From a virus (Duplodnaviria > Caudoviricetes): 52,254 bases of DNA. This document shows positions 2-42,500 of the stretch, piece by piece (position 1 is the first letter of the stretch; every line of letters begins with the position of its first letter). The position numbers and the translations under genes are program-made. Location of the stretch: the IMG/VR virus record IMGVR_UViG_3300048817_000118, positions 1 to 52,254 of that record, one strand, 5' to 3'. Below the pieces are notes generated by a model, which was not told the DNA's origin, did not search any database, and worked only from the letters and a program-made list of their open reading frames with translations.

Positions 2-439
2 CCCGCCGAAGTCTATGCGCGCAATTTTGAAACCTTCAGGCAGGTTCGCGCCACCCAGGTTCGCGCCACCCAGGTTCGCGCCGTACAGGTCCGCGCCGCA
101 CAGGTTCGCGCCGCACAGGTTCGCGCAGCACAGGTTCGCGCCGCACAGGTTCGCGCCGTACAGGTCCGCGTCGCACAGGTCCGCGCCGCACAGGTTCGCG
201 CCGCACAGGTTCGCGCCGCGCAGGTTCGCGCCGCACAGGTTCGCACCGTACAGGTCCGCGCCGCACAGGTTCGCACCGTACAGGTCCACGCCGTACAGGT
301 CCGCACCGCGCAGGTCCGCGCCGTACAGGTCCGCACCGCGCAGGTTCGCACTGCACAGGTCCGCGCCGTGCAGGTTCGCGCCGTGCAGGTTCGCGTCGCA
401 CAGGTTGGGATACTTTTCTAATATTTCGTTTTTCGTCAT
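2..439 (-). CDS. Pentapeptide-repeat protein (3' end runs off the window)
   Basis: Not in the ORF track. ATG at 439 after GGGAGGG RBS; reads MTKNEILEKYPNLCDANLHGANLHGADLCSANLRGADLYG...ANLGGANLPEGFKIARIDFGG with A(N/D)LxG repeats and no stop before base 1. Confidence 0.9.
   Translation of the reverse strand, partial: MTKNEILEKYPNLCDANLHGANLHGADLCSANLRGADLYGADLRGADLYGVDLYGANLCGADLYGANLCGANLRGANLCGANLCGADLCDADLYGANLCGANLCCANLCGANLCGADLYGANLGGANLGGANLPEGFKIARIDFGG
41..405. repeat. 15-bp tandem repeat, about 25 units (CAGGT[T/C]CGCGCCGCA-like), coding the pentapeptide repeats
   Basis: CAGGT recurs every 15 nt from 41 to 401. Confidence 0.95.
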
Positions 440-449
440 AATTCCCTCC

Positions 450-1064
450 CTATATCCGAGTGCAGCTTACCTTCTTGGCGAGGAACACCGTCAGCCCGGC
501 CTTGTCGCCTTGGCCCGCGTCCAGCCTTTCTTTTGCAGCGCCCTCACTTAGCCGCCGCTGTAGCAGCTCCCAGGCGTTATTCTTCTTCACGTAGGCGTAC
601 AGCCGGTCCCAGTCGGCAACCTGCGCTACGGCCTTGGTCTCCACCTGCACGCGCGCCACTCGGCCCGCCACGCCCGTCTGCCCGGCGGGCAGCGTCTCGA
701 CGAACCAGTTGCTGATCTGGGACTCCAGCTTGGCTATTTTCTCCGTCTCGCGCTGCATCTCCAGGCGGCGCTCCCGGGAGCGGTACAGCAAGTCCGCGCA
801 CTCGGCGGCGCTGGGCGGCAAAACGTAGTTGCCGTCACTATCCATTTGCACGGTTACGCCCTTGCCCAGGATCGCGGTGGCCAGCTGCCCCGGCCTACGG
901 GGCCGTAGCAGTGGGATAAGGTCCTCAGTCTTAGCACTCTCAACCGTTCCCCTCAGGGTATCAATGTTCAAAGCTCCGCGCGCTATGATCTTGCCATTTT
1001 GGTCATGGAAGGCAACGTCAGCCCTAGTGCTAGCGCCTTGATGCTTCATAAATCTATTTTTCAT
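450..1064 (-). CDS. Phage hypothetical protein
   Basis: About 204-aa ORF; C-terminal VADWDRLYAYVKKNNAWELLQRRL resembles a motif recalled from phage early proteins; function unknown. Confidence 0.65.
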   Translation of the reverse strand: MKNRFMKHQGASTRADVAFHDQNGKIIARGALNIDTLRGTVESAKTEDLIPLLRPRRPGQLATAILGKGVTVQMDSDGNYVLPPSAAECADLLYRSRERRLEMQRETEKIAKLESQISNWFVETLPAGQTGVAGRVARVQVETKAVAQVADWDRLYAYVKKNNAWELLQRRLSEGAAKERLDAGQGDKAGLTVFLAKKVSCTRI

Positions 1065-1228
1065 CAACTCGCCCTCCCGGCCAACAGTTGGTTAGACATG
1101 GCGTTCTCAATTCTTGCTTCCGGTAGTCGCATATCGAAATTCTCCTTGTATTAACACTGCGCTGCTCTCATTGCAATCCTCCTAGAACTTGGCGGAGGAT
1201 AAACAGCGCCCCGTCACGTCTATCCGCA

Positions 1229-1444
1229 TCATTCGGATTCATGTCTGCCGGGGTCATGGCCAGCAGGCGATTTTCGATTGCTTTGAGGGCGGCGATCAAT
1301 ACTCGTTTCACGGGCCGCAAAAGCGGCGGCAAAGTCGAATGTGTCCTTCGGGTTTCCTGTGGATTGGTGCCGCCACAACTGATAGAAGCCTTCTGCGCGT
1401 TTAACTCGTTCGCAGGGGACACCAGTGTAATCGGAATAGTCCAT
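1229..1444 (-). CDS. Small hypothetical protein
   Basis: Strong RBS AAGGAGG before ATG at 1444 (MDYSDYTG...). Overlaps another plausible frame ending at 1168, so it may be a chimeric remnant. Confidence 0.4.
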   Translation of the reverse strand: MDYSDYTGVPCERVKRAEGFYQLWRHQSTGNPKDTFDFAAAFAARETSIDRRPQSNRKSPAGHDPGRHESE

Positions 1445-1481
1445 AAATACTCCTCCTTTTATCTGTTTTCTTACTGACATA

Positions 1482-1751
1482 CTATTTCTCCTTGTGTTGT
1501 TGGCGAGTGCCTTGGTAATCTTCGTGATCCACCCAAGAGCTGACCCAGCCGCAACCTCTTGCGAATTCTGGATGCCACATCAAGCCGTCCTTCACAAACC
1601 ATTCCGACATGCGCTGGCCGCACTGACAGTGAGCGTATTGGTCCGTTTCTAAGCGTCGCGCGCGAATCCTCTGATGTTCTCGGTGGTTGATAACGCACTG
1701 CCCTATCAGGCAGATCATTAATACGACGTAAGCGAACCAGCCGTAACTCAT
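1482..1751 (-). CDS. Small membrane-anchored Cys/His-containing protein
   Basis: MSYGWFAYVVLMICLIG hydrophobic start, CQCG...WHP...GCGW; GGAG upstream. Confidence 0.55.
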   Translation of the reverse strand: MSYGWFAYVVLMICLIGQCVINHREHQRIRARRLETDQYAHCQCGQRMSEWFVKDGLMWHPEFARGCGWVSSWVDHEDYQGTRQQHKEK

Positions 1752-1824
1752 CTCACCATCTCCTTTCAGCAAACATCGAAATTCTCCTTGTATTACCGGC
1801 AGGAGCGAGCCGACCCGCCCCCGC

Positions 1825-1863
1825 CGATTACGGGCATATGTTGCCCATTAGCGAGATGGATGA
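1825..1863. repeat. Exact 39-bp copy of terS coding sequence 9694-9732
   Basis: CGATTACGGGCATATGTTGCCCATTAGCGAGATGGATGA is identical at both sites. Confidence 0.95.
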
Positions 1864-1878
1864 AGCACTACGCTGGGG

Positions 1879-2076
1879 CTAGGCACGGCAAGGCATGATC
1901 ACGCCGATGGCCTCTGTTCGGCTCACCTTTACCAACACGGGTGACTGTGTGTCTTTCACAGTTAACGTCACGATAAGAGGATCGTTCGGTCCAGTCATGG
2001 CCTTGGCTAGTCGATAGAGCAGGTCCACATCTAGCCTGACCGTGGCTGGGTTGGTCGCCGGAATCATTTTGCTCAT
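1879..2076 (-). CDS. Small protein resembling the C-terminus of beta-clamp-like phage proteins
   Basis: 65 aa ending SPVLVKV...AIGVIMPCRA; overlaps the upstream gene by ATGA. Confidence 0.5.
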   Translation of the reverse strand: MSKMIPATNPATVRLDVDLLYRLAKAMTGPNDPLIVTLTVKDTQSPVLVKVSRTEAIGVIMPCRA

Positions 2077-2309
2077 GCCAACGCTCCATCCGCGTCAGTC
2101 TCAATGATCACCAAGTTATCGTCCAGCCTTATCTCCTCAACGTACATCTTGGCTGACAGATGCGCTTTGCAATACCGCTCGGCTTTGGCGGAGGCATCCT
2201 CGACTCCCGTGGCAATCACGCACGCGGTCAGATACGTGGCTTTATTCGACCTCCCCGGTCCCGGCTTGGCATCGGTAAACGACGCGGTGTATGCTCGGAT
2301 ACCTTTCAT
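2073..2309 (-). CDS. Hypothetical protein
   Basis: MKGIRAYTASF..., 78 aa; AAAGGA before ATG; coupled to the next gene. Confidence 0.55.
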   Translation of the reverse strand: MKGIRAYTASFTDAKPGPGRSNKATYLTACVIATGVEDASAKAERYCKAHLSAKMYVEEIRLDDNLVIIETDADGALA

Positions 2310-2439
2310 TCGTCCGATCCTTTCTCGACCGAATTCTCCTTGTATTACCGGCAGGAGCGAGCCGACCCGCCCCCGCCGGTTCCCGGAACTACACTTACTC
2401 CACACTGGCCGGATTGGATCGCGCTTCCGACCAGCCCTT

Positions 2440-2468
2440 AGCTTAACCTACCGCTTACCGAAAGTAAA
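2440..2468 (-). promoter_or_regulatory. Sigma70-like leftward promoter
   Basis: TTTACT-17 nt-TAAGCT on the - strand; same CTTTACTT -35 context as the promoters at 8415 and 8757. Confidence 0.6.
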
Positions 2469-2472
2469 GCTT

Positions 2473-2649
2473 TTATTTTTTACGCAGCGCCTTAAGGTCA
2501 ATCTCCAGCTCGCGGCACAGCCAATTGATGGTGTTGCGGTGCACACCCATCGCCCGCGCCGCCCGGCAGGCGTTGCCCCCGTTCTCCTTTAGCATGCGCA
2601 GCACCAGCTCCCGCTTAAACGCGCGCACCGCCTCGTGCAGGCTCGTCAC
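2473..2649 (-). CDS. Stand-alone Fis-family HTH protein (58 aa)
   Basis: Below ORF-track cutoff. MTSLHEAVRAFKRELVLRMLKENGGNACRAARAMGVHRNTINWLCRELEIDLKALRKK has the HTH_8 pattern GN..AA..G.HRNT. Confidence 0.8.
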   Translation of the reverse strand: MTSLHEAVRAFKRELVLRMLKENGGNACRAARAMGVHRNTINWLCRELEIDLKALRKK

Positions 2650-2839
2650 CGGTTACGCTCTACGTACAGCGCGAACTGCACATCGCGCATTTCCTTGTCA
2701 ATTGCGGCTATCTTCCTCGCAGTGTCCTTGCAGGTTTGGCAGGAGTCTTCCGTCCCGCATTTTAGCAGTGCCGCACACCAGTCGTTCAGCAGTATTTCCA
2801 TTTCCTCGTTGTTCATACTATCCTCTTTTTCAAAGGGAA

Positions 2840-2977
2840 TTATATAGATAACTCGCTCCTTCGACGCTTTGCATATTGATCCCTTCGCTTCCGGCGCTTG
2901 GCCGCTTTTGTCTTGGGTTTCGGACGATACACGAGAACTTTGTCCGCGATGTGGTCTAGCTCTGGGGGAGTTTTCAT
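2840..2977 (-). CDS. Small basic protein (45 aa) with its stop inside the TIR
   Basis: MKTPPELDHIADKVLVYRPKPKTKAAKRRKRRDQYAKRRRSELSI; overlaps the upstream ORF by ATGA. Confidence 0.6.
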   Translation of the reverse strand: MKTPPELDHIADKVLVYRPKPKTKAAKRRKRRDQYAKRRRSELSI

Positions 2978-3219
2978 AGGGCGTCGTCGCCTTCAGTGGC
3001 TTCTTTCCATGTCATCCCTCGAGGACGCTTAAAATATGAAATTTCGGTGTTTACATCGGCTAATTCCGCTTTCAGCATAACCATATTGGCCAAGGCTGCG
3101 GCCAGTGCTTTCTGGCAATCCTGCAACGCTGTGAGATTGTAATTAGCGCGTTCGTGTTCAGCCCGGAGTGCAGTGAAGTTTCCACACAAAAGAGCACAGT
3201 TGTTCTCGATATTATTCAT
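2974..3219 (-). CDS. Hypothetical coiled-coil passenger protein
   Basis: MNNIENNCALL..., 81 aa; AAGGA RBS inside the element. Confidence 0.55.
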   Translation of the reverse strand: MNNIENNCALLCGNFTALRAEHERANYNLTALQDCQKALAAALANMVMLKAELADVNTEISYFKRPRGMTWKEATEGDDAL

Positions 3220-3277
3220 GCTGTCAGTTCCTTGTAGGTGAAGTGACTCATGTATATAATTCCCTTTCAAAGGTTAC

Positions 3278-3454
3278 TTACCTGAAGAGAAAGAACTCGA
3301 TCGTAAAGCTCAACACGAGCATTAAAAAGCCGATCAGCCCGTAATACCATCGGTATGCGCTGCCTAAAATCATTGCAACCGTCGCCACCAAATAGGTAAG
3401 CACTCCCAGCACGCAACAAAAAATCACTACGAAATGCCACACATTGTTGTTCAT
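3278..3454 (-). CDS. Small two-TM membrane protein (58 aa)
   Basis: MNNNVWHFVVIFCCVLGVLTYLVATVAMILG...LIGFLMLVLSFTIEFFLFR; GAGGA RBS. Confidence 0.6.
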   Translation of the reverse strand: MNNNVWHFVVIFCCVLGVLTYLVATVAMILGSAYRWYYGLIGFLMLVLSFTIEFFLFR

Positions 3455-4361
3455 ACTATCCTCTTTTTCAAAGGGAATTATATACATTACAATTGCACAT
3501 TTTCTGAAAATAATCCAAATTATTTTCGCCCCTCGATACGTTTCCGCGCTAACTCGCAGTATTCATTGGATATATCAATTCCAATAAACTCACGATTGTT
3601 AAGAACGGCCATCTTTCCTGTAGTTCCACTGCCCACGAAAGGGTCTAATACCAAATCCCCGGGATTGCTCCACGAAAGGATGTGGTCAGCCGCTAAGGAT
3701 TCAGGAAATATAGCAGGATGGTCTCCGCGTTCTGGCGCAATGTACCACCAATTATTTCGGCGGCTGAACTCAGCGCACAGCTTTCGCTTTTCTATTTTAT
3801 GAACGCCATCAACCGTTCTCCGGCCCACACCGCTCTTGTCTTTACCAGCAGATTTATTTGGCTTGTCCCTAAGCAGATTCACAACCTTTGGGCGGCCTTT
3901 CGAGAACACAAACATGAACTCCCAATTTTGTGTATAGCAAAGATTACTTCCGATAGCACCGCCGCCATCTTTAACCCATATCATCGTGTCGTGTAGATTG
4001 AATCTGCACTCTTTGAAAAACAAGGCTTGTAGAAAACTGGTTCCAGATTCGGAACCGTATTTTGTGCCATCGGCAACAACCCATACGACTACTCCGCCAA
4101 TTTTTGTAACGCGATAAAGTTGCTTTGCGATATTTTCAAAGTCGAAAGAGTAACCGTTGTATGTTCGCAGCCCATCATACGGTGGAGATGTAACCGTAAG
4201 GTCTATGCTCTCTGCTGGCAGCAGACTCATTTCTGTAGCGCAATCCCCTTCAATAATTCTCATAGCGTTTCCTCCACATCAATCCACGTTCTGCCCTTTG
4301 TTAATTGGGCATTAAGCACTCCCAGCACGCAACAAAAAATCTTCGCGAAATGCCACACATT
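3397..4361. repeat. 49-bp direct repeat (3397-3445, 4313-4361; 45/49 identical) flanking the methyltransferase
   Basis: TAAGCACTCCCAGCACGCAACAAAAAATC....CGAAATGCCACACATT. A separate exact 39-bp repeat links 2808-2846 and 3446-3484. Confidence 0.9.
3520..4263 (-). CDS. Beta-class N4-cytosine/N6-adenine DNA methyltransferase
   Basis: TSPPY catalytic motif followed by HPAIFP and DPFVGSGTT SAM-binding motif. Confidence 0.93.
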   Translation of the reverse strand: MRIIEGDCATEMSLLPAESIDLTVTSPPYDGLRTYNGYSFDFENIAKQLYRVTKIGGVVVWVVADGTKYGSESGTSFLQALFFKECRFNLHDTMIWVKDGGGAIGSNLCYTQNWEFMFVFSKGRPKVVNLLRDKPNKSAGKDKSGVGRRTVDGVHKIEKRKLCAEFSRRNNWWYIAPERGDHPAIFPESLAADHILSWSNPGDLVLDPFVGSGTTGKMAVLNNREFIGIDISNEYCELARKRIEGRK

Positions 4362-4381
4362 AGCCATATCCTAAACTCTCC

Positions 4382-4855
4382 TTAGAACTCGCGCAGCGGT
4401 CCGAACTGCCTTATTACGCCCAGCCCCGGGGCCAGCAGCACGTCCCTCGGCGTCAGGTGGCAGTCGGGGATGAAGGTGTGGTTAACCAGCGGGTTGCCGG
4501 TCTCCCGAAACGCCCAGAACGTCAGCACGTCGCAGATCCAGTGCCCGGCGGTCGCCCAGTTCTTGCCCAGCTCGATGCCGGCGATGTCCAGCAGCCCGTA
4601 CGGCCTGCCCAGCTGCGTCGCCATACGCGCCAGCGCCAGGTCGGAGCCCGCACACGCCAGCAGCAATATCTTTTGGGTAGGCAGCACCGCGCGCCACGCA
4701 ACACCTTTACCGTCGAACATCGCCGAGAGTGTCATATTGGTACTCTGCAGATACAGCCCCACGTGGCTCCAGTCGCAATTCGTCTTCTCCCGTATCATCA
4801 CCGACACCGGGTCGTATTGCTGCGTAGCCATGTAGATGCAGGCGTCGTCGGTCAT
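4382..4855 (-). CDS. Permuted papain-like (YiiX/YaeF, NlpC/P60 superfamily) enzyme
   Basis: WSHVG...GRPY...WIC order (His before Cys), C-terminal TPRDV. Confidence 0.75.
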   Translation of the reverse strand: MTDDACIYMATQQYDPVSVMIREKTNCDWSHVGLYLQSTNMTLSAMFDGKGVAWRAVLPTQKILLLACAGSDLALARMATQLGRPYGLLDIAGIELGKNWATAGHWICDVLTFWAFRETGNPLVNHTFIPDCHLTPRDVLLAPGLGVIRQFGPLREF

Positions 4856-4919
4856 GTCATCACCGCCGAGCCCCACCGTATCAGCAAGTGGCCATTCACG
4901 TTGCCGTAGAATTCGATGA

Positions 4920-5312
4920 TCATTGCCTCCCTCCTATAAGCCGTGCCCACGCGCGCCCACCCTGTATGTGCTTTACCCCCACCACGCCCGGCCCCCCCAC
5001 CAGCCCCGCGAAGAGCCACGTCCGCGAGCGGAACACGTAGCCCAGGATGCTGGGCGTGGAGGCCAGACCTATTATCGGTATGTCACGCAGGTAAAGCGCG
5101 CGGGCGGAGGGATGGGTGCCGACTAAAAACGTGTTGCCCTCCACCGCCACGCCCAACCTAAGCCCTCGCTCTGTCTCGCGCGCGTCGTAGACGTTCGCGG
5201 CCACGGCAAAGCCTACGGCCCCCGCCAGCGCCGCCAGGCCGGATTTATGGCGCGGTGGCTCCTCGGCCGCTGCGGAGGATGCGAGAATAAGTAGCAGCAG
5301 TAGTCGGGTCAT
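4920..5312 (-). CDS. Membrane protein with signal-peptide-like N-terminus
   Basis: MTRLLLLLILASSAAAEE, hydrophobic helices, D..ET....G..EGN motif. Confidence 0.6.
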   Translation of the reverse strand: MTRLLLLLILASSAAAEEPPRHKSGLAALAGAVGFAVAANVYDARETERGLRLGVAVEGNTFLVGTHPSARALYLRDIPIIGLASTPSILGYVFRSRTWLFAGLVGGPGVVGVKHIQGGRAWARLIGGRQ

Positions 5313-5740
5313 TTTGTCACCCCGCCCAGGTCCACGCAAGTTATATTGCCCGCAGTATCCACACGCAAGTATTTACTAGAATCGCAAATGGGCTTCACCA
5401 GAATGCTGCTTGCCGTGGGCCGGGAGCGCTCCAGCGCCGTTACGCGCCTAGAGATGTCGTACGCGTGCACTAGTGCCAACAGCATGACAATAAGTATGGC
5501 GTACGAAGCCAGCGACGGCTTCGGCGCGGGGGGCAGCAGGCCCCGGATGCGGGCGTCCAGGGACTCGGCGCTTGTTACCTTAAACCACTCGCTGGCCGTG
5601 CCGTTGGCCCGCTCCTCCAGGTCCGCGACGCGCGTCTTCAGCGCGCTTAATTCTGGCCATGCCGCTAGGCGTATTGCGTACTCCGAGTCTGCGCGCAATT
5701 CTAGGTTAGCTACCCGTGTCTTCAGATTCGTAATCTTCAT
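5309..5740 (-). CDS. Coiled-coil plus TM hypothetical protein
   Basis: MKITNLKTRVANLE... with internal repeat LKTRVADLE, TM segment YAILIVMLLALV; GGAG RBS. Confidence 0.6.
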   Translation of the reverse strand: MKITNLKTRVANLELRADSEYAIRLAAWPELSALKTRVADLEERANGTASEWFKVTSAESLDARIRGLLPPAPKPSLASYAILIVMLLALVHAYDISRRVTALERSRPTASSILVKPICDSSKYLRVDTAGNITCVDLGGVTK

Positions 5741-6036
5741 GGCTTCTCCTCCTGCCCCGTCGCGCCGCACTTGGCGCACAGCCTACGTCCCCACATGTAC
5801 CCGCTTCCCCTGCACGCCCGGCACTGGCCTCCCGCCAGCTTAAGCTTGGCGTCGTAGGCGGCACGTTGCCTGGAATCTTTCAAGGTCGCCCAAGCTAAGG
5901 TCAACTCGCGAAACTTCTCTTCGTCCCCGTGCTTGTCGGGGTGGTACAGCACGGCCAGCTGGATGTAGGCCGCGTGCAGCGCCCCCAACGTCGCGCCGGG
6001 GGGCATGCCCAGGACAGAATAGAGAGTGGGCTTCAT
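5737..6036 (-). CDS. J-domain protein with C-terminal DnaJ-type Zn finger
   Basis: LYSVLG...YHPDKHG...F..L..AW.TL.D...RAAYD followed by CRACRGSG...CAKCGATG. Confidence 0.9.
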   Translation of the reverse strand: MKPTLYSVLGMPPGATLGALHAAYIQLAVLYHPDKHGDEEKFRELTLAWATLKDSRQRAAYDAKLKLAGGQCRACRGSGYMWGRRLCAKCGATGQEEKP

Positions 6037-8072
6037 AAACGACCTGCTTTCCGTTCCTCGTCGTAGGCAGCACCTATTTTCGCAGGACTCAGTTGCTCCA
6101 ATGCCTTACGATCACCCTGCACAATCCACAGCTTTACTACGCGCTTTTCCACCGGGCTCCAGATAGGCTCACCTTGGTGCGCCTGCCTAAACCCACCGGC
6201 TTTTAATGACCTCATCAATCCTTGTTTAGTCAGCTTCTTTTTTGCTTCTGGGTCCCAAAAGTTGAACAACGTTTCCAAGGTAACCAGCGTATACGCGAGC
6301 GGTACGGGCAGCATCGCAGACTTTAACACGTTCTCGGGATGCTCTTTTAACTCTGCCACCCACGCCTCTGCATCGCTGCGGCCTAGCTCAATCATGGCCT
6401 TGCGGCTAACTGTTTCTCGCGCCGGAGCTGTAGGATCGAAGCCAGTTAAGTTCAAATGTAAAAAATAATAGAATAACGCTCCTGCACCTTCCGGTGACTT
6501 TATCCATTTTACATACTGCTTAAGAAATTCGGGGGCAATGTCCACCAACCGTCCACAACGCACTTCGTGGATAAATAAGCGGCGGTCGCCATCTTCTACA
6601 AAAAAGCTATCATGGTGGTTAGAATTAAAGTAATAGTTCATACAATCGGGCAGCACATAAGTAGGTAAGTGCTTTGCATTGATACGTATCGTGGGCCGGG
6701 TAATCATGCCCTTTAGCTTATCGGCAATGCCGCGTTTATCGCCTCCGGCAATTTCTTCGGCCATAATGAACTGCTTATTCTGGGCCCATTCGTTAAAGTC
6801 TCCTTTTAGCTGGTCTTCATCCAGTTCTTCAAAGTTAAGTCCGTAAATTTCCTTCATACTGTGACCCAATAAACTCTTACCGCAGCCTTTTACTGTACTG
6901 TGCACCACTAAGGCCGTGTACAACTTAGTGCCGGGATGCTGCAGCGGGTAAGCCAGCCATTGTTCCATCCAACGACGATCGGCAGCGGCGGTCGGATCGT
7001 CCTTAAAAAAGTAATCCATAAACTCACGCCACAAGCTTGTGTCACCTTTCTTAATGTACGCTGGCGCTACGCCCCATCCACGCCATAAATTGGCCTCGCG
7101 CTCGTCCGTAATCCGCTCTTGTCCGGGTGCATAGGTAAGCCTTAATACTTCGCTCCGCGAAGGCCACTTAATCCACTCCTCGGCGGCACCGCGCTTTTCT
7201 ATTTTTGTTTTACCCTTTGCAGCAACTACTTCCTCTTCCCAGATGCGGTTAGCATATACACTGCGGGCGAACATATCGCGGGACATACGCTGTAGCGTGT
7301 CGTGTCGCAATACCAAACCAGGGTCTTGGATAAATACTACTTCTTCGTTTAGCTCATGCAGAGTACGACTAGGGGCCCAGGGTTGCGCAGCATTAAGCAG
7401 TTCCTTAAAAGCTTCAACGCCCCGGGCCATAATAAAATCGTCCAATCCGGTCTTGGTGGTGGCGGTTAGAGCGGGTAAATCTACGGGAAACACTTGTGCA
7501 TTAAGAGCTAGGAATTCCGCAGATAATGCATTGCGCGCCCGTACAACCTGGAAGTTACTGCTGGCATCACTATCATACACAATACATACAGTTGACTCAC
7601 TCCAGTCTATTTGTCGTAGTCCTTCTATAAATGCTTCCTTACGGCTGCGGAAGTTGTACACGCCACCTAGGCCAATGCAAGGCACTCCATACTTACAAGC
7701 ACAATCGGCTTTAAGCTCACCTTCCGTAATCACTACAGCGCGAGCCTCGCCTTTATGTGAATCTAAATACTGTACCCATGGAAACAATTTAGAAAAGTAA
7801 GGTTGAGGGGCGGCTCCAGCAGGTTGGGTGTAGCGGATAAGCTTACCTTTTTCGTCGTAAATTTTCTCTAGATACCGATAACGTAAGAATCCATTACGTT
7901 GGCCCGTAATCTTATGGTAGGGTAGGACGAACCCCGCAGCACGGATTGATATTTCTACAGGCGGCAGTAACATAGCATTAAATCCCAGCTTATGCGCATC
8001 TTCGGCAGACAACCCACTGGCGGCAATTTTCTCCAGCATGCGGTGGCGTACCTCCGCAATAGTAAGCGACAC
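6033..8072 (-). CDS. Phage primase-helicase (DUF3854 Toprim-like plus SF3/DUF5906 helicase)
   Basis: ITEGELKA, YDSD and GLDDF primase motifs; GCGKS Walker A, FIMAEEI Walker B, FNSNH motif C. Confidence 0.88.
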   Translation of the reverse strand: MSLTIAEVRHRMLEKIAASGLSAEDAHKLGFNAMLLPPVEISIRAAGFVLPYHKITGQRNGFLRYRYLEKIYDEKGKLIRYTQPAGAAPQPYFSKLFPWVQYLDSHKGEARAVVITEGELKADCACKYGVPCIGLGGVYNFRSRKEAFIEGLRQIDWSESTVCIVYDSDASSNFQVVRARNALSAEFLALNAQVFPVDLPALTATTKTGLDDFIMARGVEAFKELLNAAQPWAPSRTLHELNEEVVFIQDPGLVLRHDTLQRMSRDMFARSVYANRIWEEEVVAAKGKTKIEKRGAAEEWIKWPSRSEVLRLTYAPGQERITDEREANLWRGWGVAPAYIKKGDTSLWREFMDYFFKDDPTAAADRRWMEQWLAYPLQHPGTKLYTALVVHSTVKGCGKSLLGHSMKEIYGLNFEELDEDQLKGDFNEWAQNKQFIMAEEIAGGDKRGIADKLKGMITRPTIRINAKHLPTYVLPDCMNYYFNSNHHDSFFVEDGDRRLFIHEVRCGRLVDIAPEFLKQYVKWIKSPEGAGALFYYFLHLNLTGFDPTAPARETVSRKAMIELGRSDAEAWVAELKEHPENVLKSAMLPVPLAYTLVTLETLFNFWDPEAKKKLTKQGLMRSLKAGGFRQAHQGEPIWSPVEKRVVKLWIVQGDRKALEQLSPAKIGAAYDEERKAGRL

Positions 8073-8102
8073 GCGAGGCTCCTTACAGGTTGCCAGAGAG
8101 GG

Positions 8103-8381
8103 TTACGGTTTAGCGCTACCGTTGCCATTACGGTTAAAATAGTCCGCAATGATCATTTTAATTACGGCAGAGCGGCTGCGCAGTCGAGTACCGTCACGAC
8201 GGCTGGCTTCGTAGGCGGCATAATCTTCTTGATATTTTTTATAGCGTTCTTGCTGAGAACGAGTAAGAGTGCCGGGAGCTACGTTTTTTGTAGGAAAAGG
8301 CCAAGTGGGTTCAGGTAGATCTTCTACCAAAGCGTCAATCTTAATTGCCAGTTCATCTGACAAATCAGCGGATATCAACAT
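8103..8381 (-). CDS. Putative ribbon-helix-helix-like regulator with internal insertion
   Basis: MLISADLSDELAIKIDALV...RSRSAVIKMIIADYF; first gene after the leftward promoter; AGAGGGG RBS. Confidence 0.5.
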   Translation of the reverse strand: MLISADLSDELAIKIDALVEDLPEPTWPFPTKNVAPGTLTRSQQERYKKYQEDYAAYEASRRDGTRLRSRSAVIKMIIADYFNRNGNGSAKP

Positions 8382-8414
8382 AAACCATCAACCCCTCTTG
8401 TTTACAGTAAATAT

Positions 8415-8443
8415 AAATTACGCTGTTTATATTAAAAAGTAAA
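8415..8443 (-). promoter_or_regulatory. Sigma70-like leftward (early) promoter
   Basis: TTTACT-17 nt-TAATTT on the - strand, 33 nt upstream of the ATG at 8381. Confidence 0.6.
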
Positions 8444-8449
8444 GGGTTA

Positions 8450-8750
8450 ACTTACGCCTGTGTTTGAGCGGCGTAAGGGGCTTTTGTAAATGGCAACCTA
8501 GCATAAACAGAGGCTATTTTTAATCTTTTACAAAAGCCCCTTACGCTACCCCCCCTTTCGGGTTGGACCTATAGGAATTCACTACTATTATTATAATGAG
8601 TATTTCTCTATATATAAGTTAAAAAGCCGTAAGGCCGTAAGGGCGTAAGGGGATTTTTGTAGAACCGTGCTCCGCACGGGTTTCCAATTACTGACCTCCC
8701 CTTACGCCTTTGTTTATGCGGGTCCCAGCACTTAGCTGTTTACCGCCTTT
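8450..8750. repeat. Putative replication origin/operator: GCGTAAGG/CCTTACGC repeats, 20-bp perfect inverted repeat, AT-rich core
   Basis: GCGTAAGGGGCTTTTGTAAA (8471-8490) is inverted at 8527-8546; CGTAAGG three times in tandem at 8628-8650; CCCTTACGCC at about 8699; AT-rich 8575-8625. Confidence 0.65.
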
Positions 8751-8756
8751 TTACCC

Positions 8757-8786
8757 TTTACTTCCACCTTCCACCCCGCGTAAAGT
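8757..8786 (+). promoter_or_regulatory. Sigma70-like rightward promoter
   Basis: TTTACT-18 nt-TAAAGT facing the morphogenesis operon. Confidence 0.5.
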
Positions 8787-8872
8787 TAATTAGTAATCTG
8801 TGTTTCCTGTTCACACTCGTCGCACAACAGGCTTTGCCGGACAACGCGGTAGTTACGCCCCAAATACCGGAA

Positions 8873-9214
8873 ATGAAAATCGGAATCCTTGAGTTCCACC
8901 AATCGCATGACGAGTTACCTAAACATTCTGTATCTTCCGTCCGAGCTACAAAGCTTCTCGGACTTAATGTTGTGGCTTGGGTTACGGAAGGTCGCTTGTT
9001 GCGTTTAATAGTCCGTGCTGGTTGGAGTTCCGTGAAAGAACTTCTCCGCCCCGCCTGCTTTAGTACCACTCCTATCTTGTTGTTGGCTCCGCTTCCTTAT
9101 TATGATTTGGACACTAACTATCCGCGCTTGGGTCAGGAGACGGATGCCCAAGAGCGGCGTAGGCAGTTGTGGAGCGGGCAGGCCATGGTGCCGGCAAGGG
9201 AAAGAGTGGAATGA
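8873..9214 (+). CDS. Hypothetical protein upstream of terS
   Basis: Open frame MKIGILEF...; start uncertain (8834 or 8873). Confidence 0.4.
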   Translation: MKIGILEFHQSHDELPKHSVSSVRATKLLGLNVVAWVTEGRLLRLIVRAGWSSVKELLRPACFSTTPILLLAPLPYYDLDTNYPRLGQETDAQERRRQLWSGQAMVPARERVE

Positions 9215-9435
9215 AGATTACCAGATTGCAACCTCCGACAATTGAAGAGGTTCAGTGGACGATTTCCGCTCTGGAAAAAGAGTTTCGCGTCAGCAGCGGG
9301 AAGTTTGCGTCCAATGAAAGGGCGTATCGCTCCGTTCCCGAGGACATTGCTGCCAATTGGGATTTGGCGCTGCATCAACTTGATGTATTGCGGCCGTTAG
9401 TGCCGGCAAGGGAAAGAGTGGATTGTGGGAACTAA
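9211..9435 (+). CDS. Small protein, possibly antitoxin-like, between 23-bp direct repeats
   Basis: MKITRLQPPTIEEVQWTISALEKEFRVSSGKF...W; GTGCCGGCAAGGGAAAGAGTGGA at 9188-9210 and 9400-9422. Confidence 0.55.
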   Translation: MKITRLQPPTIEEVQWTISALEKEFRVSSGKFASNERAYRSVPEDIAANWDLALHQLDVLRPLVPARERVDCGN

Positions 9436-10003
9436 AAAGACTAAGAAACACCGCAAGCCCCGAGAGCTTAAGCCTAACGAGGCCTTGTTCGTGGCCGAGA
9501 GTGTCAAGCCCGGATTGAGCAAGGTCGAGGCCTCGCGACGCGCTGGTCTGGATCACGTGCCCCACGGGGCACACGTGAATCGTTATCGTCAGGAAGTGCT
9601 GCAGCAGCAGATGTCGATCGCGGACGTAACGGTAGGGCGTATTGTGGTGGAGTTGGCGCGTGTGGCGTTCTCGGATCCTGGCAAGATGTTCGACGATTAC
9701 GGGCATATGTTGCCCATTAGCGAGATGGATGAGGATACGCGCCGAGCTATTAGCGGCTTCGATGTGGAGAAGAGAACGGAACGACACGGCGACGACACGG
9801 AAACGTATTATGTCTTAAAGCCCCGGCTGTGGAACAAGAACGCGGCCCTGGATACGCTAGCCAAGCTGCACTACACTGAGGCCGGAGAGCTGCGTATGCC
9901 TACTAACGGTGGCACGCTAGCACCGCAGCAGCCGGTTGTTCATGTACACTTTGTAGCTCCGCCGCAACAACTAGAGAATGGCAGCAGCGGTACTACCTCC
10001 TGA
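9425..10003 (+). CDS. terS: Terminase small subunit
   Basis: ELARVAFSDPGKMFD..G.M.PISEMDED..RAI pattern; immediately upstream of terL. Confidence 0.85.
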   Translation: MGTKKTKKHRKPRELKPNEALFVAESVKPGLSKVEASRRAGLDHVPHGAHVNRYRQEVLQQQMSIADVTVGRIVVELARVAFSDPGKMFDDYGHMLPISEMDEDTRRAISGFDVEKRTERHGDDTETYYVLKPRLWNKNAALDTLAKLHYTEAGELRMPTNGGTLAPQQPVVHVHFVAPPQQLENGSSGTTS

Positions 10004-11264
10004 ACTCGATGTACGGCTACCCGACGGTTACGAGTACCTGTTCGAGCCGCACCGCTACAAGGTGGCCCACGGGGGCCGGGGCAGTACCAAGTCTTGGTCT
10101 TTCGCGCGTGCGCTTATCATTAAAGCGTACCACTATAAGTTGCGCATCCTCTGCGCCCGCGAGCTGCAGACCTCCATCGGCGAGAGCGTCCACAAGCTGC
10201 TCGCGGACCAGATCGAGCTCATGGGGCTCGGCAAGTTCTTCGAGGTGCAGCAGCAGGGCATCTATGGCCACCGGGGCAGTGAGTTCTTCTTCTACGGTAT
10301 TCGCAACAACATTACTAAAGTTAAGTCCGCCGAGGGCATCGACATTTGTTGGTGTGAGGAAGCTGAGAAAATTAGCGACAACAGCTGGCAGGTGCTTATT
10401 CCCACTATCCGCAAGACGGGCAGTGAGATATGGATTACCTTTAACCCCGACGAGGAGATGGATCCCACCTACCAGCGCTTTATCGCTAACGCAAAACAAC
10501 TGCCTGGCAACAGCGTCGTCCGCGAGTTTAACTGGAACCACAATCCCTGGTGGTACACGGACGACTGCAAGAGTATGCGGGACGAGAAGGACTACCTCTA
10601 CCGCGTGGACCCCGAGGCTGCGAACCACGTGTGGGGTGGGCTGTGCCGGCAGAACGCTAGCAGCCAAATATTCCGGGGCAAGTATGCGGTCGAGGATTTC
10701 GACGCGCCTACGAACGATTCCGTCCTGTTCCGCGAGCAGGGCTGGGACGGGCCGTACTTCGGCGCGGACTGGGGATTTTCGCAGGACCCGGCCTGCATCG
10801 TCAAGTGTTGGGTAAAGGGCTATGTATACGGCAAGACAATGGGAAAGCTTTATGTGGAGTATGACGAAGGCGGCGTCGGCATCGAGCTGGACGACCTGCC
10901 CGCCGTGTTTAAGCGGGTGCCTGGTGTGTGCGATTATCTCATACGAGGCGACAGCTCGCGGCCCGAGACTATTAGCCACGTCGCCCGTCACGGCAACATG
11001 CGCATAGACCCCAGCGAAAAGTGGAAGGGCTCGGTGGAGGACGGCATTGCTTTCCTTAAGAGCTTCGAGCAGATCGTCATCCACAGTCGTTGTGTTGCCA
11101 CCCAGCAAGAGGCCCGGCTGTACAGCTACAAGCGTGACCGGCTTACGGGCGATGTGCTGGCGGATATCGTAGACGCCAATAACCACCGCTTCGACGCTGT
11201 GCGCTACGCCTTGGAGCCGCTGATCATGGCGGGCAACGCGGCACACGTATGGGCACGGATGTGA
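9978..11264 (+). CDS. terL: Terminase large subunit, PBSX family
   Basis: GGRGSTKS, CAREL, WCEEAE, TFNP, GADWGF, NNHRFDAVRY. Confidence 0.95.
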   Translation: MAAAVLPPELDVRLPDGYEYLFEPHRYKVAHGGRGSTKSWSFARALIIKAYHYKLRILCARELQTSIGESVHKLLADQIELMGLGKFFEVQQQGIYGHRGSEFFFYGIRNNITKVKSAEGIDICWCEEAEKISDNSWQVLIPTIRKTGSEIWITFNPDEEMDPTYQRFIANAKQLPGNSVVREFNWNHNPWWYTDDCKSMRDEKDYLYRVDPEAANHVWGGLCRQNASSQIFRGKYAVEDFDAPTNDSVLFREQGWDGPYFGADWGFSQDPACIVKCWVKGYVYGKTMGKLYVEYDEGGVGIELDDLPAVFKRVPGVCDYLIRGDSSRPETISHVARHGNMRIDPSEKWKGSVEDGIAFLKSFEQIVIHSRCVATQQEARLYSYKRDRLTGDVLADIVDANNHRFDAVRYALEPLIMAGNAAHVWARM

Positions 11265-11542: not shown

Positions 11543-11688
11543 TGCTTTGGACAATTTTGGTGGTCCTGCTGGTGCTGTGGCTGCTCGGGTTTGGAGCAGG
11601 CATAGGCGGCGGGGCCATCCATCTAATACTGGTGGTGTGCGTGGTGTTGCTGGTGCTAGGACTAGTGCAAAGGAGGAACGTGCCATGA
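11542..11688 (+). CDS. lmo0937/DUF5670-like small membrane protein
   Basis: MLWTILVVLLVLWLLGFGAGIGGGAIHLILVV matches the recalled family pattern. Confidence 0.8.
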   Translation: MLWTILVVLLVLWLLGFGAGIGGGAIHLILVVCVVLLVLGLVQRRNVP

Positions 11689-39506: not shown

Positions 39507-42500
39507 ATGCGAAAATTCCTATCCGTACTGCTCTTGCTGGCCGCGACATTGATGACAGCAGCGGCCCAGAACACCACCACCTTTACCGCCTCGAACAGCG
39601 TCACCACGCTCACTGCCGCAGCCATCTACAGCGGTCCCGGCAGCCTTACGCCGCTGCCTACGGGCACCGCGCTGTTCCAAGCGACCAATGCCCTGGGAGT
39701 CCCGATCAGCTACCAGCTGGGCGGAGGCGGGCAGCAGATTTCGGTTCCCACCATATGCAGCATCGTGAACGGGGCCATAGTCCAGCCCTGCATGCTGGCC
39801 AACGTAGCTACTGCTAATCCGACCAACTTCTGCTACTCGCTTACCATCAAGAACAGCGCCAACCACGTGGTACTGGGCGGCCCTAGCTCCGGCTATCAGT
39901 GCTTGCAGCCGACCTTCACCAACACCTGGTGCTCGGCCGCCACCTGCGACCTGGACAACTTCAGCCCGACCGTTCCCCAGCAGATATTCACCCTGTCCAC
40001 GCCTACGCTGACCACGCTGGGCGGGGTCTACGGCGGCGACTGCCCCACCGGCCAGGCGGCCACGGGGTACAACGCCACCGGCCACCCGGACTGCGCCGTG
40101 GTAAGCGGCGGAGGCGGGGGAGCGGGCGTCTGGGGGGCGATTACCGGCACCTTGACCAACCAGACGGACCTGGAGAACGCGCTAGCTCTGCTGTCGCCGG
40201 TCGCCAGCCCGGTGTTTACCGGCATCCCCACCGCGCCCACGCCCATCACCAGCAGCAACGGCACCCAGGTGGCCAACACGGCCTACGTGCAGAACAACTT
40301 AGCCGGGTTCGCACCCATCAACAGCCCGGCGTTTACCGGCACTCCGTTGGCCCCCACCGTGGGGCTGAGCGACAGCTCCACCAAGCTGGCCACCACCGGG
40401 TACGTGCAGGGGCAGAACTACGTTACCGCCGTCAGCCCGGCGCTGACCGGCGTGCCCACCGCGCCCACGGCGGCTGTCAATACGAACACTACGCAGATCG
40501 CCACTACTCAGTTCGTAATTGGGCAAGGGTACGCGCCCATCACCAGCCCGACGTTCACCGGAGTCCCGGCAGCCCCCACGCCCCTTATTTCCGACAGCAG
40601 CACCAAGCTGGCCACCACCGCCTGGGTAAACGAGCAGGGCTACGGCACCGCCACGGGCAACGTGGCGGGGCCGGGTAGCAGCATACTTAACGACATCACG
40701 CTATTCGGAGGCACGAATGGAAAATCCATCGTCGACGCAGGTTTTGGATTCCCTTTGGCCGCAGCCCATATTGGGACCTTAGCAGCTGGAAGCAATGGGC
40801 TGGCAGCCTCTGCTACTACCGACACCACCAATGCTAGCAACATTAGCAGCGGTACTCTATCGCATGCAAGACTACCGGCACTGCTCAGCGGCGACATCCC
40901 TAACAACGCCGCCAACACCACTGGTACCGCTTCTAATGCCACTCTAGCCGCCCTAGCCACCGCCCTAGCCGCCGCGCCAGCGCAGTGCCTGGTGGCCGGG
41001 CAATTCGCCACCGGCATCACCGCCGCCGGGGTCGCCAACTGCTCCACGCCCACCGGCTCCGGCAACGTCACCGGGCCCGTGTCCTCCGTGGCCAACGACC
41101 TGGCCGTGTTCAACAACAACCTAGGCACCCTGCTGAGTGACTCCGCCGTGCCACTGAACACGCTGGCTACTTTAACTGGCACGCAGACGCTAACCAACAA
41201 GTCCATCTCCGCCAGCCAGATCAACAGCGGGGCGCTGGCCACGGCGGTAGGCGGCACTGGCACCAGCACCGGGCTCACAGGTATAGTGCGCGGCGGCAAC
41301 CCGTTCGCGGCCTCCGAGCTGAGCGGCGACGCCGCCACTTCCGGGTCGAATCTAGTCACCGTGAACGGGCTGAAGGGCGCGGCGCTGCCCGCGCCCATCA
41401 CCGGGTACCTGAACTACGTGGCCGGCACCGGGTGGGAGCTAAACGCCCTGCCCGGCGGCGGCAACGTCAACACTTCCGGGACGCCTACTGCAGGACAGAT
41501 CGGACTGTGGGTGACTAGCACGGCCATCCAGGGCGTGACCGCGCTGCCCGCCAGTGCCGAGCCCGCGCATACAGGCGACGTGACCAACGCCGCCGGGTCG
41601 CTGGCAACTACCGTGGTCCAAGTCGAGGGTGGGGCAATTCCCGCATCGGCGGCCTTGGTCGGCACCAACTCCAGCAAGCAGCTGGTTGCCAATACCGGCA
41701 CTATTACTAATAGCACGTCCGGGAACGCCGCCACGGCCACGGCTGCCGTAGCCCTGGCCTCCACCCCGGCGCAGTGCACTAGTGGGCAGTTCGCCACCGG
41801 CATCGCGGCCAACGGCACCGCCAACTGCACCACCCCGCCGGGCGGGGGCAACGTGAGCAACTCCGGCACTCCCACCGTGGGACAGATCGCGGCGTTCACC
41901 AGCGCCACCGTAATCCAAGGATTAACTACTCTCCCCACTTCCGCCGAGCCAGCGCACACCGGGGACGTAAGCAACTCGGCGGGGTCGCTGGGCATGACCG
42001 TGCTGCGGCTGAACGGAGGAACTATTCCGGTGTCGGCGGCGCTGGTCGGAACCAACTCCGGCTCACAGCTGGTGGCCAACACGGGGACCATTGCCAACAA
42101 CACCAGCGGCAATGCCGCCACAGCAACTTCCGCTACTACCGCCGCCACGGCCACGGCCCTAGGTGCCACGCCCGCGCAGTGTTCGGGCTCCACGTTCGCC
42201 ACCGGCATCACGGCCAACGGCACCGCCAACTGCGCCACCCCGGCTGGGTCGGGGAACGTCAGCAACACGGGCACCCCCACTACCGGGCAGCTCGCGGCGT
42301 TTACCAGCGCTACCGTGATCCAAGGCGTTACCACGCTGCCCACGGCGGCGGTTCCGGGGTTCACCGGCGACATGACCAACGGGGCCGGGTCGCTGGCCAC
42401 TATGGTGGGCAAGGTTAACGGCGGGCTGGTGCCCACTTCGGCTGCGCTGGTGGCCACCAACTCCTCCGCGCAGCCTGTGGCGGCGGCGCTGGCGCAGGGG

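What the first reader, a model, noticed from the sequence alone, without database searches (positions are those of the whole stretch)
1780..1863. Exact 39-nt piece of terS, antisense in the early transcript, fused to a hairpin leader
Seen: 1825-1863 is identical to terS 9694-9732 and abuts a 47-bp duplicated element (2-nt overlap) whose 13-bp stem pairs fully only as - strand RNA. Genes here are on the - strand, so the RNA would be complementary to terS mRNA. The piece holds its own palindrome GGGCA-N5-TGCCC. Inference: (a) a guide/antisense RNA with a 3' hairpin that delays packaging or targets related phages; (b) a captured pac-site fragment, since pac often lies in terS; (c) recombination filler.
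Basis: partly seen in the sequence, partly recalled or inferred. Interest (0 to 1): 0.75.

Follow-up and report, generated by a model that had tools for sequence, protein, structure and literature searches.

The report
Stray terS fragment in early-gene spacer
A phage from peat and permafrost carries an exact 39-base copy of part of its own DNA-packaging gene in a gap between two small early genes, most likely a scar of sloppy recombination and not a dedicated regulatory RNA.

Summary
Window 1825-1863 equals 9694-9732 (39/39, direct orientation). None of 100 shuffles gave a match. It is the only significant early-versus-late match in the genome. It abuts, with a 2-nt overlap, a 47-nt module repeated at 1780-1826 and 2332-2378. 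That module holds a 13-15-bp GC hairpin, which pairs fully only as minus-strand RNA, followed by an AAGGAG ribosome-binding site. Genes here run on the minus strand and terS on the plus strand, so early RNA would carry 39 nt complementary to terS mRNA. terS is the source: the piece encodes codons 90-103, the most conserved block of the family. Per-run contigs from two studies reach both junctions, which argues against misassembly.

Nothing supports a dedicated antisense or guide RNA. I found no promoter-like or terminator-like site, no Rfam match, no second such piece and no relative with a comparable arrangement. The borders are sharp. The piece sits at a hairpin foot, in a 2.5-kb zone unusually rich in short exact duplications and cassette swaps.

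Best reading: a templated recombination patch (about 0.55). A functional antisense (about 0.2) and a second pac site (about 0.1) remain open.

The parts
1825..1863 (+). Ectopic 39-nt copy of an internal terS coding segment, in the same DNA orientation as terS. It lies in the spacer between two minus-strand genes, so it reads antisense in minus-strand RNA. It contains the palindrome GGGCA-N5-TGCCC at 1832-1846.
   Evidence: Exact identity; E 1.4e-15; no ORF; no flank homology.
9694..9732 (+). Source copy inside terS, from the last base of codon 90 to the second base of codon 103 (peptide D-Y-G-H-M-L-P-I-S-E-M-D).
   Evidence: Falls in the most conserved block of 12 aligned TerS proteins.
9425..10003 (+). 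terS, small terminase subunit, 192 aa counted from GTG 9425.
   Evidence: Pfam Terminase_2, E 2.7e-6, 28.5 bits against cutoff 26.1; PHROG 51. Homologues align from residue 1.
1795..1828 (-). GC-rich RNA hairpin, copy 1. It has 15 uninterrupted pairs including 4 G-U, and loop UCGG. Its outermost C-G (1826, 1825) is shared with the terS piece.
   Evidence: (-27.8 kcal/mol).
2347..2380 (-). The same hairpin, copy 2, in the leader upstream of the 78-aa gene.
   Evidence: (-30.4 kcal/mol).
1780..1826 (-). 47-nt repeated module (hairpin plus TAATACAAGGAGAATT ribosome-binding segment), copy 1.
   Evidence: 47/47 identity with 2332-2378. The ribosome-binding part recurs 4 times: 1133, 1479, 1775 and 2327 (family D16).
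2332..2378 (-). 47-nt repeated module, copy 2.
   Evidence: Contigs of run X1 break 30 nt into it. The X2 contig crosses copy 1 without a break, which suggests copy 2 is missing from the main X2 variant (inference).
1753..1776 (-). Seven-codon mini-ORF (MFAERRW, then stop) placed at the right distance from the module's AAGGAG. It overlaps the ribosome-binding site of the next gene.
   Evidence: Read; one search shows the frame.
1482..1751 (-). 89-aa gene downstream of the module. No family hit.
1879..2076 (-). 65-aa gene whose stop codon (1881-1879) lies 15 nt before the piece on the minus strand.
   Evidence: Only a weak PHROG hit, E 7.8e-4.
2073..2309 (-). 78-aa cargo gene. The cassette 2068-2330 occurs with other flanks in runs X3 and X23.
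   Evidence: tables 3, 7 and 8.

Best explanation
The 39 bases are a templated patch: a short stretch copied from the phage's own terS gene and laid into a new DNA joint during illegitimate recombination or a replication template switch.

The joint sits between the end of a small cargo cassette (the 78-aa and 65-aa genes) and a reusable expression module made of a strong RNA hairpin and a ribosome-binding site. The GC-rich inverted repeat is the likely stalling or breakage point, and the copy starts on its outermost CG pair. This part of the early operon is assembled from swappable cassettes that recombine at short repeated boundary sequences.

As a by-product, the leftward early polycistronic RNA carries 39 nt perfectly complementary to terS mRNA, just 5' of the hairpin. 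Where both RNAs coexist, a 39-bp duplex could form and would be an RNase III-type substrate. I see no sign that the phage makes a discrete RNA from the piece or depends on it.

Shown: the identity, the orientation, the direction of copying, the sharp borders, the position at the hairpin foot, the presence of the junction in more than one sample, and the local excess of duplications.

Inferred: the mechanism of origin, and the lack of a selected function.
For: 1. terS is the donor. The piece encodes codons 90-103, inside the best conserved block of the family (consensus MFDxxGNMxPIxEMDEDTRRAISGFDVEKRTE). The early copy lies in no ORF.

2. The borders are clean. Local alignment of 100-nt flanks scores 12 on the right (270 of 300 shuffles do as well or better) and 14 on the left (93 of 300). 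The only junction microhomology is the CG at 1825-1826, the first pair of the hairpin stem.

3. It is a singleton. No other early-versus-late match exceeds chance.

4. The neighbourhood is a recombination hot spot. There are 4 exact dispersed repeat pairs of 25 nt or more in window 460-39500, each with at least one copy in 1780-4341. Among 50 IMG/VR loci sharing terL (721,659 bases), 3 loci have one such pair each. The ribosome-binding module occurs 4 times.

5. Cassette exchange is visible in nature.
- The 2068-2330 cassette occurs in runs X3 and X23 with unlike sequence on both sides. Its border lies 2 nt from the module's end at 2332.
- Run X2 carries 1000-1854 with 0 differences but has little depth over 2268-2584 (5.7, against 30-108 nearby).
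- Its contig does not break at the 47-nt repeat.

6. There are no hallmarks of a separate RNA gene.
- No minus-strand promoter-like site lies between 1000 and 3400, and no terminator-like site lies at the hairpin. The scan found 9 promoter-like sites (7.2 expected) and 11 terminator-like sites (9.9 expected), all elsewhere.
- Rfam gives nothing at the locus.

7. The 39/39 identity carries no weight for selection. Samples from different studies are identical over kilobases, so point mutation is slow relative to rearrangement in this population.
Against: - No sister genome lacking the patch was found, so neutrality and recency are not shown. No search returned a relative that holds the early region.
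- The arrangement occurs in at least two population variants from different studies (X1 and X2). It is therefore not a private, just-arisen lesion.
- The antisense orientation, the placement directly 5' of a very stable RNA-specific hairpin (3-4 G-U pairs, so selected as RNA), and the piece's own small hairpin (-10 kcal/mol) are what a processed antisense RNA would look like.
- Templated patches of this length at bacterial or phage joints are not a well documented class. My search listed 12 of 65 matching papers, and no listed title or abstract start described a phage or bacterial case.
- Two nucleotides of microhomology are weak evidence.
Confidence: 0.55

Rival explanations
1. Functional trans-acting antisense. 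The early transcript, or an RNA processed from it and protected at its 3' end by the hairpin, pairs with terS mRNA over 39 nt. This triggers double-strand-specific cleavage or blocks translation. The effect would hold back packaging until late transcription outruns early RNA, or would hit the terS of a co-infecting close relative.
For: - Perfect 39-nt complementarity on the transcribed strand.
- Cofolding 141 nt of early RNA with 131 nt of terS mRNA gains -40.2 kcal/mol over the two monomers.
- The adjacent hairpin is RNA-specific and very stable.
- The piece forms a 7-bp hairpin whose loop is complementary to the loop of the same hairpin in terS mRNA, a possible kissing start (inference).
- The target is the most conserved part of terS.
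- The arrangement is present in two studies.
- There is precedent for phage immunity RNAs processed from longer transcripts that act through short duplicated complementary segments (P4 CI RNA; passage in PMC4825925).
Against: - No promoter-like or terminator-like signal; the hairpin is not followed by a U-tract.
- The target is mid-CDS, not the ribosome-binding site.
- It is a single instance in the genome and no relative is available for comparison.
- The same hairpin also sits in a 5' leader with no antisense cargo (2347-2380), so the hairpin's role does not depend on the piece.
- An RNA that targets the phage's own essential gene needs a timing mechanism, for which I have no evidence.
Confidence: 0.2
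2. Second packaging site. The 39 bp contain the pac or TerS recognition sequence, which in some headful phages lies inside terS. The ectopic direct copy would act as an additional or decoy TerS-binding site.
For: - TerL is of the Terminase_3 family. By my recollection many members are headful packagers.
- The native P22 pac site lies inside the terS ORF (passages of PMC11260489).
- The piece is mid-terS, direct in orientation, lower in GC (49%) than terS (57%) and the genome (60%), and contains a 5-bp palindrome.
Against: - There are no data on DNA ends; only assembled contigs could be laid.
- This TerS is Terminase_2. By my recollection its best-studied member, SPP1 G1P, uses a pac region at and upstream of the 5' end of its gene, not mid-gene.
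- A 5-bp palindrome with a 5-nt spacer in 39 nt is not unusual by chance (my estimate, about 0.2).
- No other partial copies exist (up to 3 mismatches).
Confidence: 0.1
3. Local cis-regulator. The 5' part of the antisense piece pairs with the ribosome-binding region of the downstream 89-aa gene, so that its translation depends on the mini-ORF.
For: The minimum-energy fold of 1885-1745 (minus strand) pairs UUCAUCCAUCUC with GGAGAUGGUGAG across the hairpin.
Against: The pairing is not better than chance. The duplex energy is -21.8 kcal/mol. It is matched or beaten by 155 of 1000 shuffled pieces and by 44 of 181 other antisense 39-mers of terS.
Confidence: 0.04
4. Assembly artefact: a chimeric join made by the assembler.
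For: The contig comes from a metagenome, and repeats of 39 and 47 nt invite misjoins.
Against: - Independent per-run contigs carry the junctions.
- X2 (a different study) has one contig covering 1000-1854 with 0 differences at depth 69.
- X1 has one covering 1834-2361.
- Contigs stop exactly 30 nt into each repeat at both loci (1809, 1834, 1854, 2349, 2361, 9703, 9723), as a k=31 graph must if the repeat is real.
Confidence: 0.03

Closest known systems
Mosaic joints in tailed-phage genomes: illegitimate recombination, and exchange at short conserved boundary sequences (discussed in Martinsohn, Radman and Petit 2008, PMC2327257; passages read)
   Same: Small cargo genes are bracketed by short repeated boundary segments. 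Module borders lie at gene starts. Variants with different neighbours coexist in nature.
   Different: Here the joint also holds a 39-nt insert copied from a distant essential gene of the same genome. The passages I read do not describe that kind of insert.
Phage immunity antisense RNAs that act through short duplicated segments: P4 CI RNA with seqA/seqC (passage in PMC4825925); P1/P7 c4 RNA (recalled, not checked)
   Same: A short segment is complementary to a second site of the same genome. The RNA is cut out of a longer transcript and not made from its own gene. A stable stem-loop sits next to the pairing segment.
   Different: Those RNAs act within their own operon on regulatory sites (termination or ribosome binding) in temperate elements, and their processing is known. 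Here the target is mid-CDS of a late structural-operon gene 7.9 kb away on the other strand. No processing or function is shown, and I found no integrase or repressor in the early genes I scanned.
pac site inside the small terminase gene (P22; PMC11260489, passages read)
   Same: A short sequence sits inside the terS ORF of a phage with a headful-type large terminase family.
   Different: No ends are mapped here. The TerS families differ (Terminase_2 here). I know of no natural phage with an ectopic second pac copy (recollection only; no literature search was made for this point).
Intercistronic processing and stabilising hairpins of early polycistronic phage mRNAs, such as the T7 RNase III sites (recalled, not checked in a paper)
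   Same: A strong, repeated, RNA-specific hairpin lies between cistrons of an early operon, directly upstream of a ribosome-binding site.
   Different: This hairpin has 13-15 uninterrupted pairs without the internal loop typical of T7 sites. There are only two copies, identical to each other, so no covariation test is possible.

Membership tests
Trans-acting antisense small RNA | Extended complementarity to a target RNA made from the opposite strand elsewhere | tested here: met
   39/39 complementarity; terS is on the plus strand and the local genes on the minus strand.
Trans-acting antisense small RNA | Own promoter, or a defined processing site that yields a discrete RNA | tested here: inconclusive
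   No sigma-70-like site on the minus strand near the locus. Other promoter types and processing cannot be judged from sequence.
Trans-acting antisense small RNA | Defined 3' end (intrinsic terminator: stem plus U-tract) | tested here: not met
   The stem is present, but the tail is UAAUACAAGG and the scan does not call it.
Trans-acting antisense small RNA | Conservation, or co-variation with the target, in relatives | not testable with these tools
pac site | Virion DNA ends or a packaging series start at the site | not testable with these tools
   Only contigs could be laid.
pac site | Lies in or next to terS of a headful-type terminase | tested here: inconclusive
   The source copy is mid-terS and TerL is Terminase_3. 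The packaging type itself is not shown.
Intrinsic terminator | GC-rich stem followed by a run of T | tested here: not met
   None of the 11 terminator-like sites lies at 1795-1828 or 2347-2380.
CRISPR-like repeat-spacer unit (mini-array) | Spacer flanked by repeats at regular short spacing; repeat resembles a known CRISPR repeat family | tested here: not met
   The second repeat copy is 505 nt away and includes a ribosome-binding site in front of a gene. No Rfam match of any kind at the locus with E up to 1.
Templated patch at an illegitimate-recombination joint | Insert with sharp borders, no flanking homology, donor elsewhere in the genome | tested here: met
Templated patch at an illegitimate-recombination joint | Lies at a junction between independently moving modules | tested here: met
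   It lies between the 3' end of the cargo cassette and the repeated module. Cassette borders at 2068 and 2330 are seen in other runs.
Templated patch at an illegitimate-recombination joint | Sister lineages without the insert | not testable with these tools
   No sister genome was retrieved. The one read-laying run showed only forms that contain the junction.

The most novel reading that the evidence does not exclude
The phage uses a captured fragment of its own small-terminase gene as a built-in antisense. The fragment is transcribed as part of the early operon and stabilised by the adjacent RNA hairpin. It would time or throttle DNA packaging, or sabotage co-infecting relatives that share this highly conserved terS block. 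This would be a trans-antisense regulator born by self-capture of a late-gene fragment.
Probability: 0.17. Interest if true: 0.65.

Novelty: new member of a known kind. Interest (0 to 1): 0.3.

Why it matters
If it is a scar, it is a clean natural example of how phage early regions are built. Cassettes are joined at reusable hairpin-plus-ribosome-binding modules, and a datable 39-nt templated insert marks one joint. That is useful for understanding mosaicism but not surprising.

If the antisense reading were true, it would show a simple route by which a phage gains a regulator of its own packaging gene, or a weapon against relatives: copying a gene fragment backwards into an early transcript. 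That would be testable and of wider interest.

On the practical side, the exact 39- and 47-nt repeats break short-read assemblies at these points. That matters for anyone binning or annotating this phage.

Tried and rejected
Comparative route, which led nowhere.
- blastn of 1000-3500 against 50,697 phage records: no match.
- tblastn of TerS against the same records: 8 records, all Ralstonia phages, at 27.7-33.7% identity.
- Exact and degenerate hairpin patterns and a 32-nt part of the piece in IMG/VR: 0 hits each.
- TerS as query in IMG/VR and in GTDB genomes: pattern hits, but no confirmed relative.
- Degenerate hairpin pattern in JGI metagenome contigs: 15 loci. All are generic GC-rich perfect hairpins with unrelated flanks and no ribosome-binding module.
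- A 24-nt right-arm-plus-RBS pattern in GTDB genomes: 0 hits.
- TerL in IMG/VR: 50 loci at 33-77% identity. By tblastn with 22 window proteins, 0 of 50 encode a TerS relative. Only 2 early-side proteins had one weak hit each: the methylase in L028 and ORF 8834-9214 in L016.
- The first 12 of these loci had no exact repeat of 20 nt or more, apart from one 30-nt inverted pair in L020.
- The 89-aa gene, the 78-aa gene and the primase-like gene as queries in IMG/VR: none.
- Earlier-findings look-ups by sequence and by relatives gave nothing outside this window.

Expression. The one RNA-library run laid (X23) had no contig over 1634-1950 or over terS. Its only pieces lie at 2068-2330 and 2846-3264 and come from a diverged relative. 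Missing cover proves nothing either way.

Other rejected ideas.
- Anti-SD pairing: not above chance.
- A longer decayed terS duplication: no flank similarity.
- CRISPR-like unit and intrinsic terminator: defining features not met.
- A coding role: the plus-strand frame keeps the TerS reading (ADYGHMLPISEMDE) in a 62-codon stop-to-stop frame that lies opposite the 89-aa gene; I did not check it for a start codon and do not take it as a gene.

Literature.
- (terms: bacteriophage, antisense RNA, small terminase, late gene) listed 15 of 147 papers. No title or abstract start described an antisense to terS made from a duplicated fragment.
- (terms: templated insertion, filler DNA, bacteria, phage) listed 12 of 65 papers. 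None described phage templated patches.
- These are listings only, so I make no claim that such cases are absent from print. Supplementary files were not consulted.

Full report
**What the window is**

The window is the whole record: one contig of 52,254 bases at 60% GC. Pieces of it are held by peat, permafrost and soil metagenome runs from 17 studies.

- Genes from about 8,400 down to the left end run on the minus strand. They include a primase-like protein (PHROG DNA primase, E 6e-34), an N6/N4 DNA methylase (Pfam, E 1.6e-41), a Fis-type HTH protein and many small ORFs without family.
- From about 8,800 rightwards the genes are on the plus strand. They begin with terS (9425-10003; Terminase_2, 28.5 bits against a cutoff of 26.1) and terL (9978-11264; Terminase_3, E 3.5e-35).

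**Checking the observation**

- 1825-1863 and 9694-9732 are identical over 39 nt in the same orientation. With up to three mismatches there are only these two sites, and none in 100 shuffles.
- In a blastn-short comparison of the early part (460-8800) with the rest, this pair scores E 1.4e-15. Everything else is a 13-15-mer at E 0.29 or worse.
- 1780-1826 equals 2332-2378 (47 nt). The two repeats overlap by the CG at 1825-1826.

Read on the minus strand, the order is:
1. the 65-aa gene, 2076-1879, stop TAG;
2. 15 nt;
3. the terS piece in antisense, 1863-1825;
4. a hairpin, 1828-1795;
5. TAATACAAGGAGAATT;
6. a 7-codon mini-ORF, 1776-1753;
7. the 89-aa gene, from ATG 1751.

- Alone it folds at -27.8 kcal/mol (copy 1) and -30.4 kcal/mol (copy 2) as minus-strand RNA. 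The plus-strand RNA gives only -14.9 kcal/mol and a broken stem.
- The 141-nt minus-strand stretch folds at -57.8 kcal/mol, z -3.2, with 0 of 200 shuffles as good. The plus strand gives z -1.3.

**Is it an assembly artefact?**

One read-laying run put per-run contigs (k=31) of X1, X2, X3 and an RNA library, X23, on 1000-10500.
- In X1, contigs cover 1000-1809, 1834-2361 and 2349-2846. They end exactly 30 nt into each repeat.
- In X2, from another study, one contig covers 1000-1854 with no difference at depth 69. It runs through the whole hairpin module and 30 nt into the piece.
- At terS, X2 contigs cover 8705-9723 and 9694-10500. An X3 contig ends at 9723 and an X1 contig starts at 9703.

Breaks at k-1 on both sides of both copies are what a real 39-nt repeat must produce. 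The junction-specific words are present in reads of at least two studies. Thirty letters is one short of the tool's own bridging rule of 31. That is the ceiling for this kind of data, so spanning raw reads are still desirable. I put the artefact reading at about 3%.

**Direction of copying**

Twelve TerS proteins were found among 275 candidates, including the window's own gene call, and then aligned. The piece covers codons 90-103, inside the best conserved block of the family (consensus MFDxxGNMxPIxEMDEDTRRAISGFDVEKRTE). The early copy lies in no plausible ORF. terS is therefore the donor and the early copy is derived.

Beyond the 39 nt there is no residual similarity. Local scores of the 100-nt flanks are no better than shuffles: right flank 12, reached by 270 of 300 shuffles; left flank 14, reached by 93 of 300. 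So it is a clean patch, not the remnant of a larger duplication.

**The neighbourhood**

- The ribosome-binding segment of the 47-nt module recurs four times in front of minus-strand genes: 1133, 1479, 1775 and 2327.
- Outside the fibre genes and the 15-nt tandem array, the window has four exact dispersed repeat pairs of 25 nt or more: 1780/2332, 2808/3446, 1825/9694 and 3397/4313. Each has at least one copy in 1780-4341. Among 50 IMG/VR loci that share terL (721,659 bases in all), only 3 loci have one such pair each.
- In runs X3 and X23, a roughly 95% identical copy of the 78-aa gene cassette (2068-2330) continues on both sides into unlike sequence (tables 3, 7, 8). The cassette border lies 2 nt from the end of the module at 2332.
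- In X2 the depth over 2268-2584 falls to 5.7, against 30-108 nearby. The X2 contig crosses 1780-1826 without a break. This suggests that the main X2 variant lacks the second module copy yet keeps the piece-hairpin junction (inference).

The early left arm is thus a fast-rearranging cargo region. Samples that differ by whole cassettes are otherwise identical base for base, so the 39/39 identity says nothing about selection.

**Tests of a dedicated function**

- The consensus scans find no minus-strand promoter-like site between 1000 and 3400 and no terminator-like site at either hairpin copy. In all they found 9 promoter-like sites against 7.2 expected, and 11 terminator-like sites against 9.9 expected.
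- Rfam at E up to 1 gives two irrelevant hits near 11,600 and nothing at the locus.
- The minimum-energy fold pairs the 5' part of the antisense piece with the ribosome-binding region of the 89-aa gene. That duplex (-21.8 kcal/mol) is matched by 155 of 1000 shuffled pieces and by 44 of 181 other antisense 39-mers of terS. I drop this idea.
- The antisense potential itself is real. Cofolding the early RNA with terS mRNA gains -40.2 kcal/mol.
- The same hairpin also occurs at 2380-2347 in a 5' leader with no antisense cargo.

**Relatives**

No search returned a genome that shares the early region. The searches are listed under Tried and rejected. The 50 terL relatives do not even share terS (0 of 50). 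Within this genome the piece is a singleton.

**Verdict**

- Most likely (about 0.55): a templated patch laid down at an illegitimate-recombination or template-switch joint, at the foot of a strong inverted repeat, in a cassette-shuffling region. Its antisense character would be a by-product.
- A selected trans-antisense RNA is about 0.2.
- A second pac or TerS-binding site is about 0.1. The P22 precedent, a pac site inside the terS ORF, is confirmed by passages of PMC11260489.
- Both rivals need wet-lab or raw-read data.

The nearest known frames are phage mosaic joints and boundary sequences (PMC2327257, passages) and, for the bolder reading, immunity RNAs such as P4 CI (PMC4825925, passage). 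Interest is modest at 0.3: a real and neat feature, a single case, with no support yet for a new mechanism.

Noticed in passing
window 10-459: At least 19 in-register copies of a 15-nt unit. On the minus strand this reads as a pentapeptide-repeat ORF (ATG 439) that runs off the left end of the contig. A 913-codon plus-strand ORF runs off the right end. The contig probably breaks in this repeat.
   Followed up: no
window 2846-3264: Polymorphic stretch. Contigs of X1 and X3 skip 2972 to 3215 (242 nt). X23 replaces it with 127 other letters. X2 has an opposite-strand joint at 2914/2977. There are many single-base variants between 2870 and 2947.
   Followed up: partly
window 2068-2330: The 78-aa gene cassette occurs at about 95% identity, with different flanks, in run X3 and in an RNA library, X23. 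It looks like a mobile cargo gene shared among peat phages.
   Followed up: partly
window 8471-8546: Perfect 20-nt inverted repeat with a 36-nt spacer, in the divergent region between the leftward and rightward gene blocks. Possibly an operator or a bidirectional element.
   Followed up: no
window 9188-9210 and 9400-9422: A 23-nt exact direct repeat just upstream of two plus-strand starts, the second being terS. An X1 contig diverges into unlike sequence right at 9400. This may be another module boundary.
   Followed up: no
window 9425-10003: The database's own gene call for terS is 142 aa (P0001). Homologues align from the first residue of the 192-aa form that starts at GTG 9425, so the long form is probably right.
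   Followed up: partly
L016-L065: Fifty IMG/VR loci share terL at 33-77% identity, but none has a detectable relative of this terS. The small and large terminase genes appear to be exchanged independently in this group.
   Followed up: partly
window 39507-49700: A single 3397-codon ORF with many internal repeat families, in the tail-fibre region.
   Followed up: no
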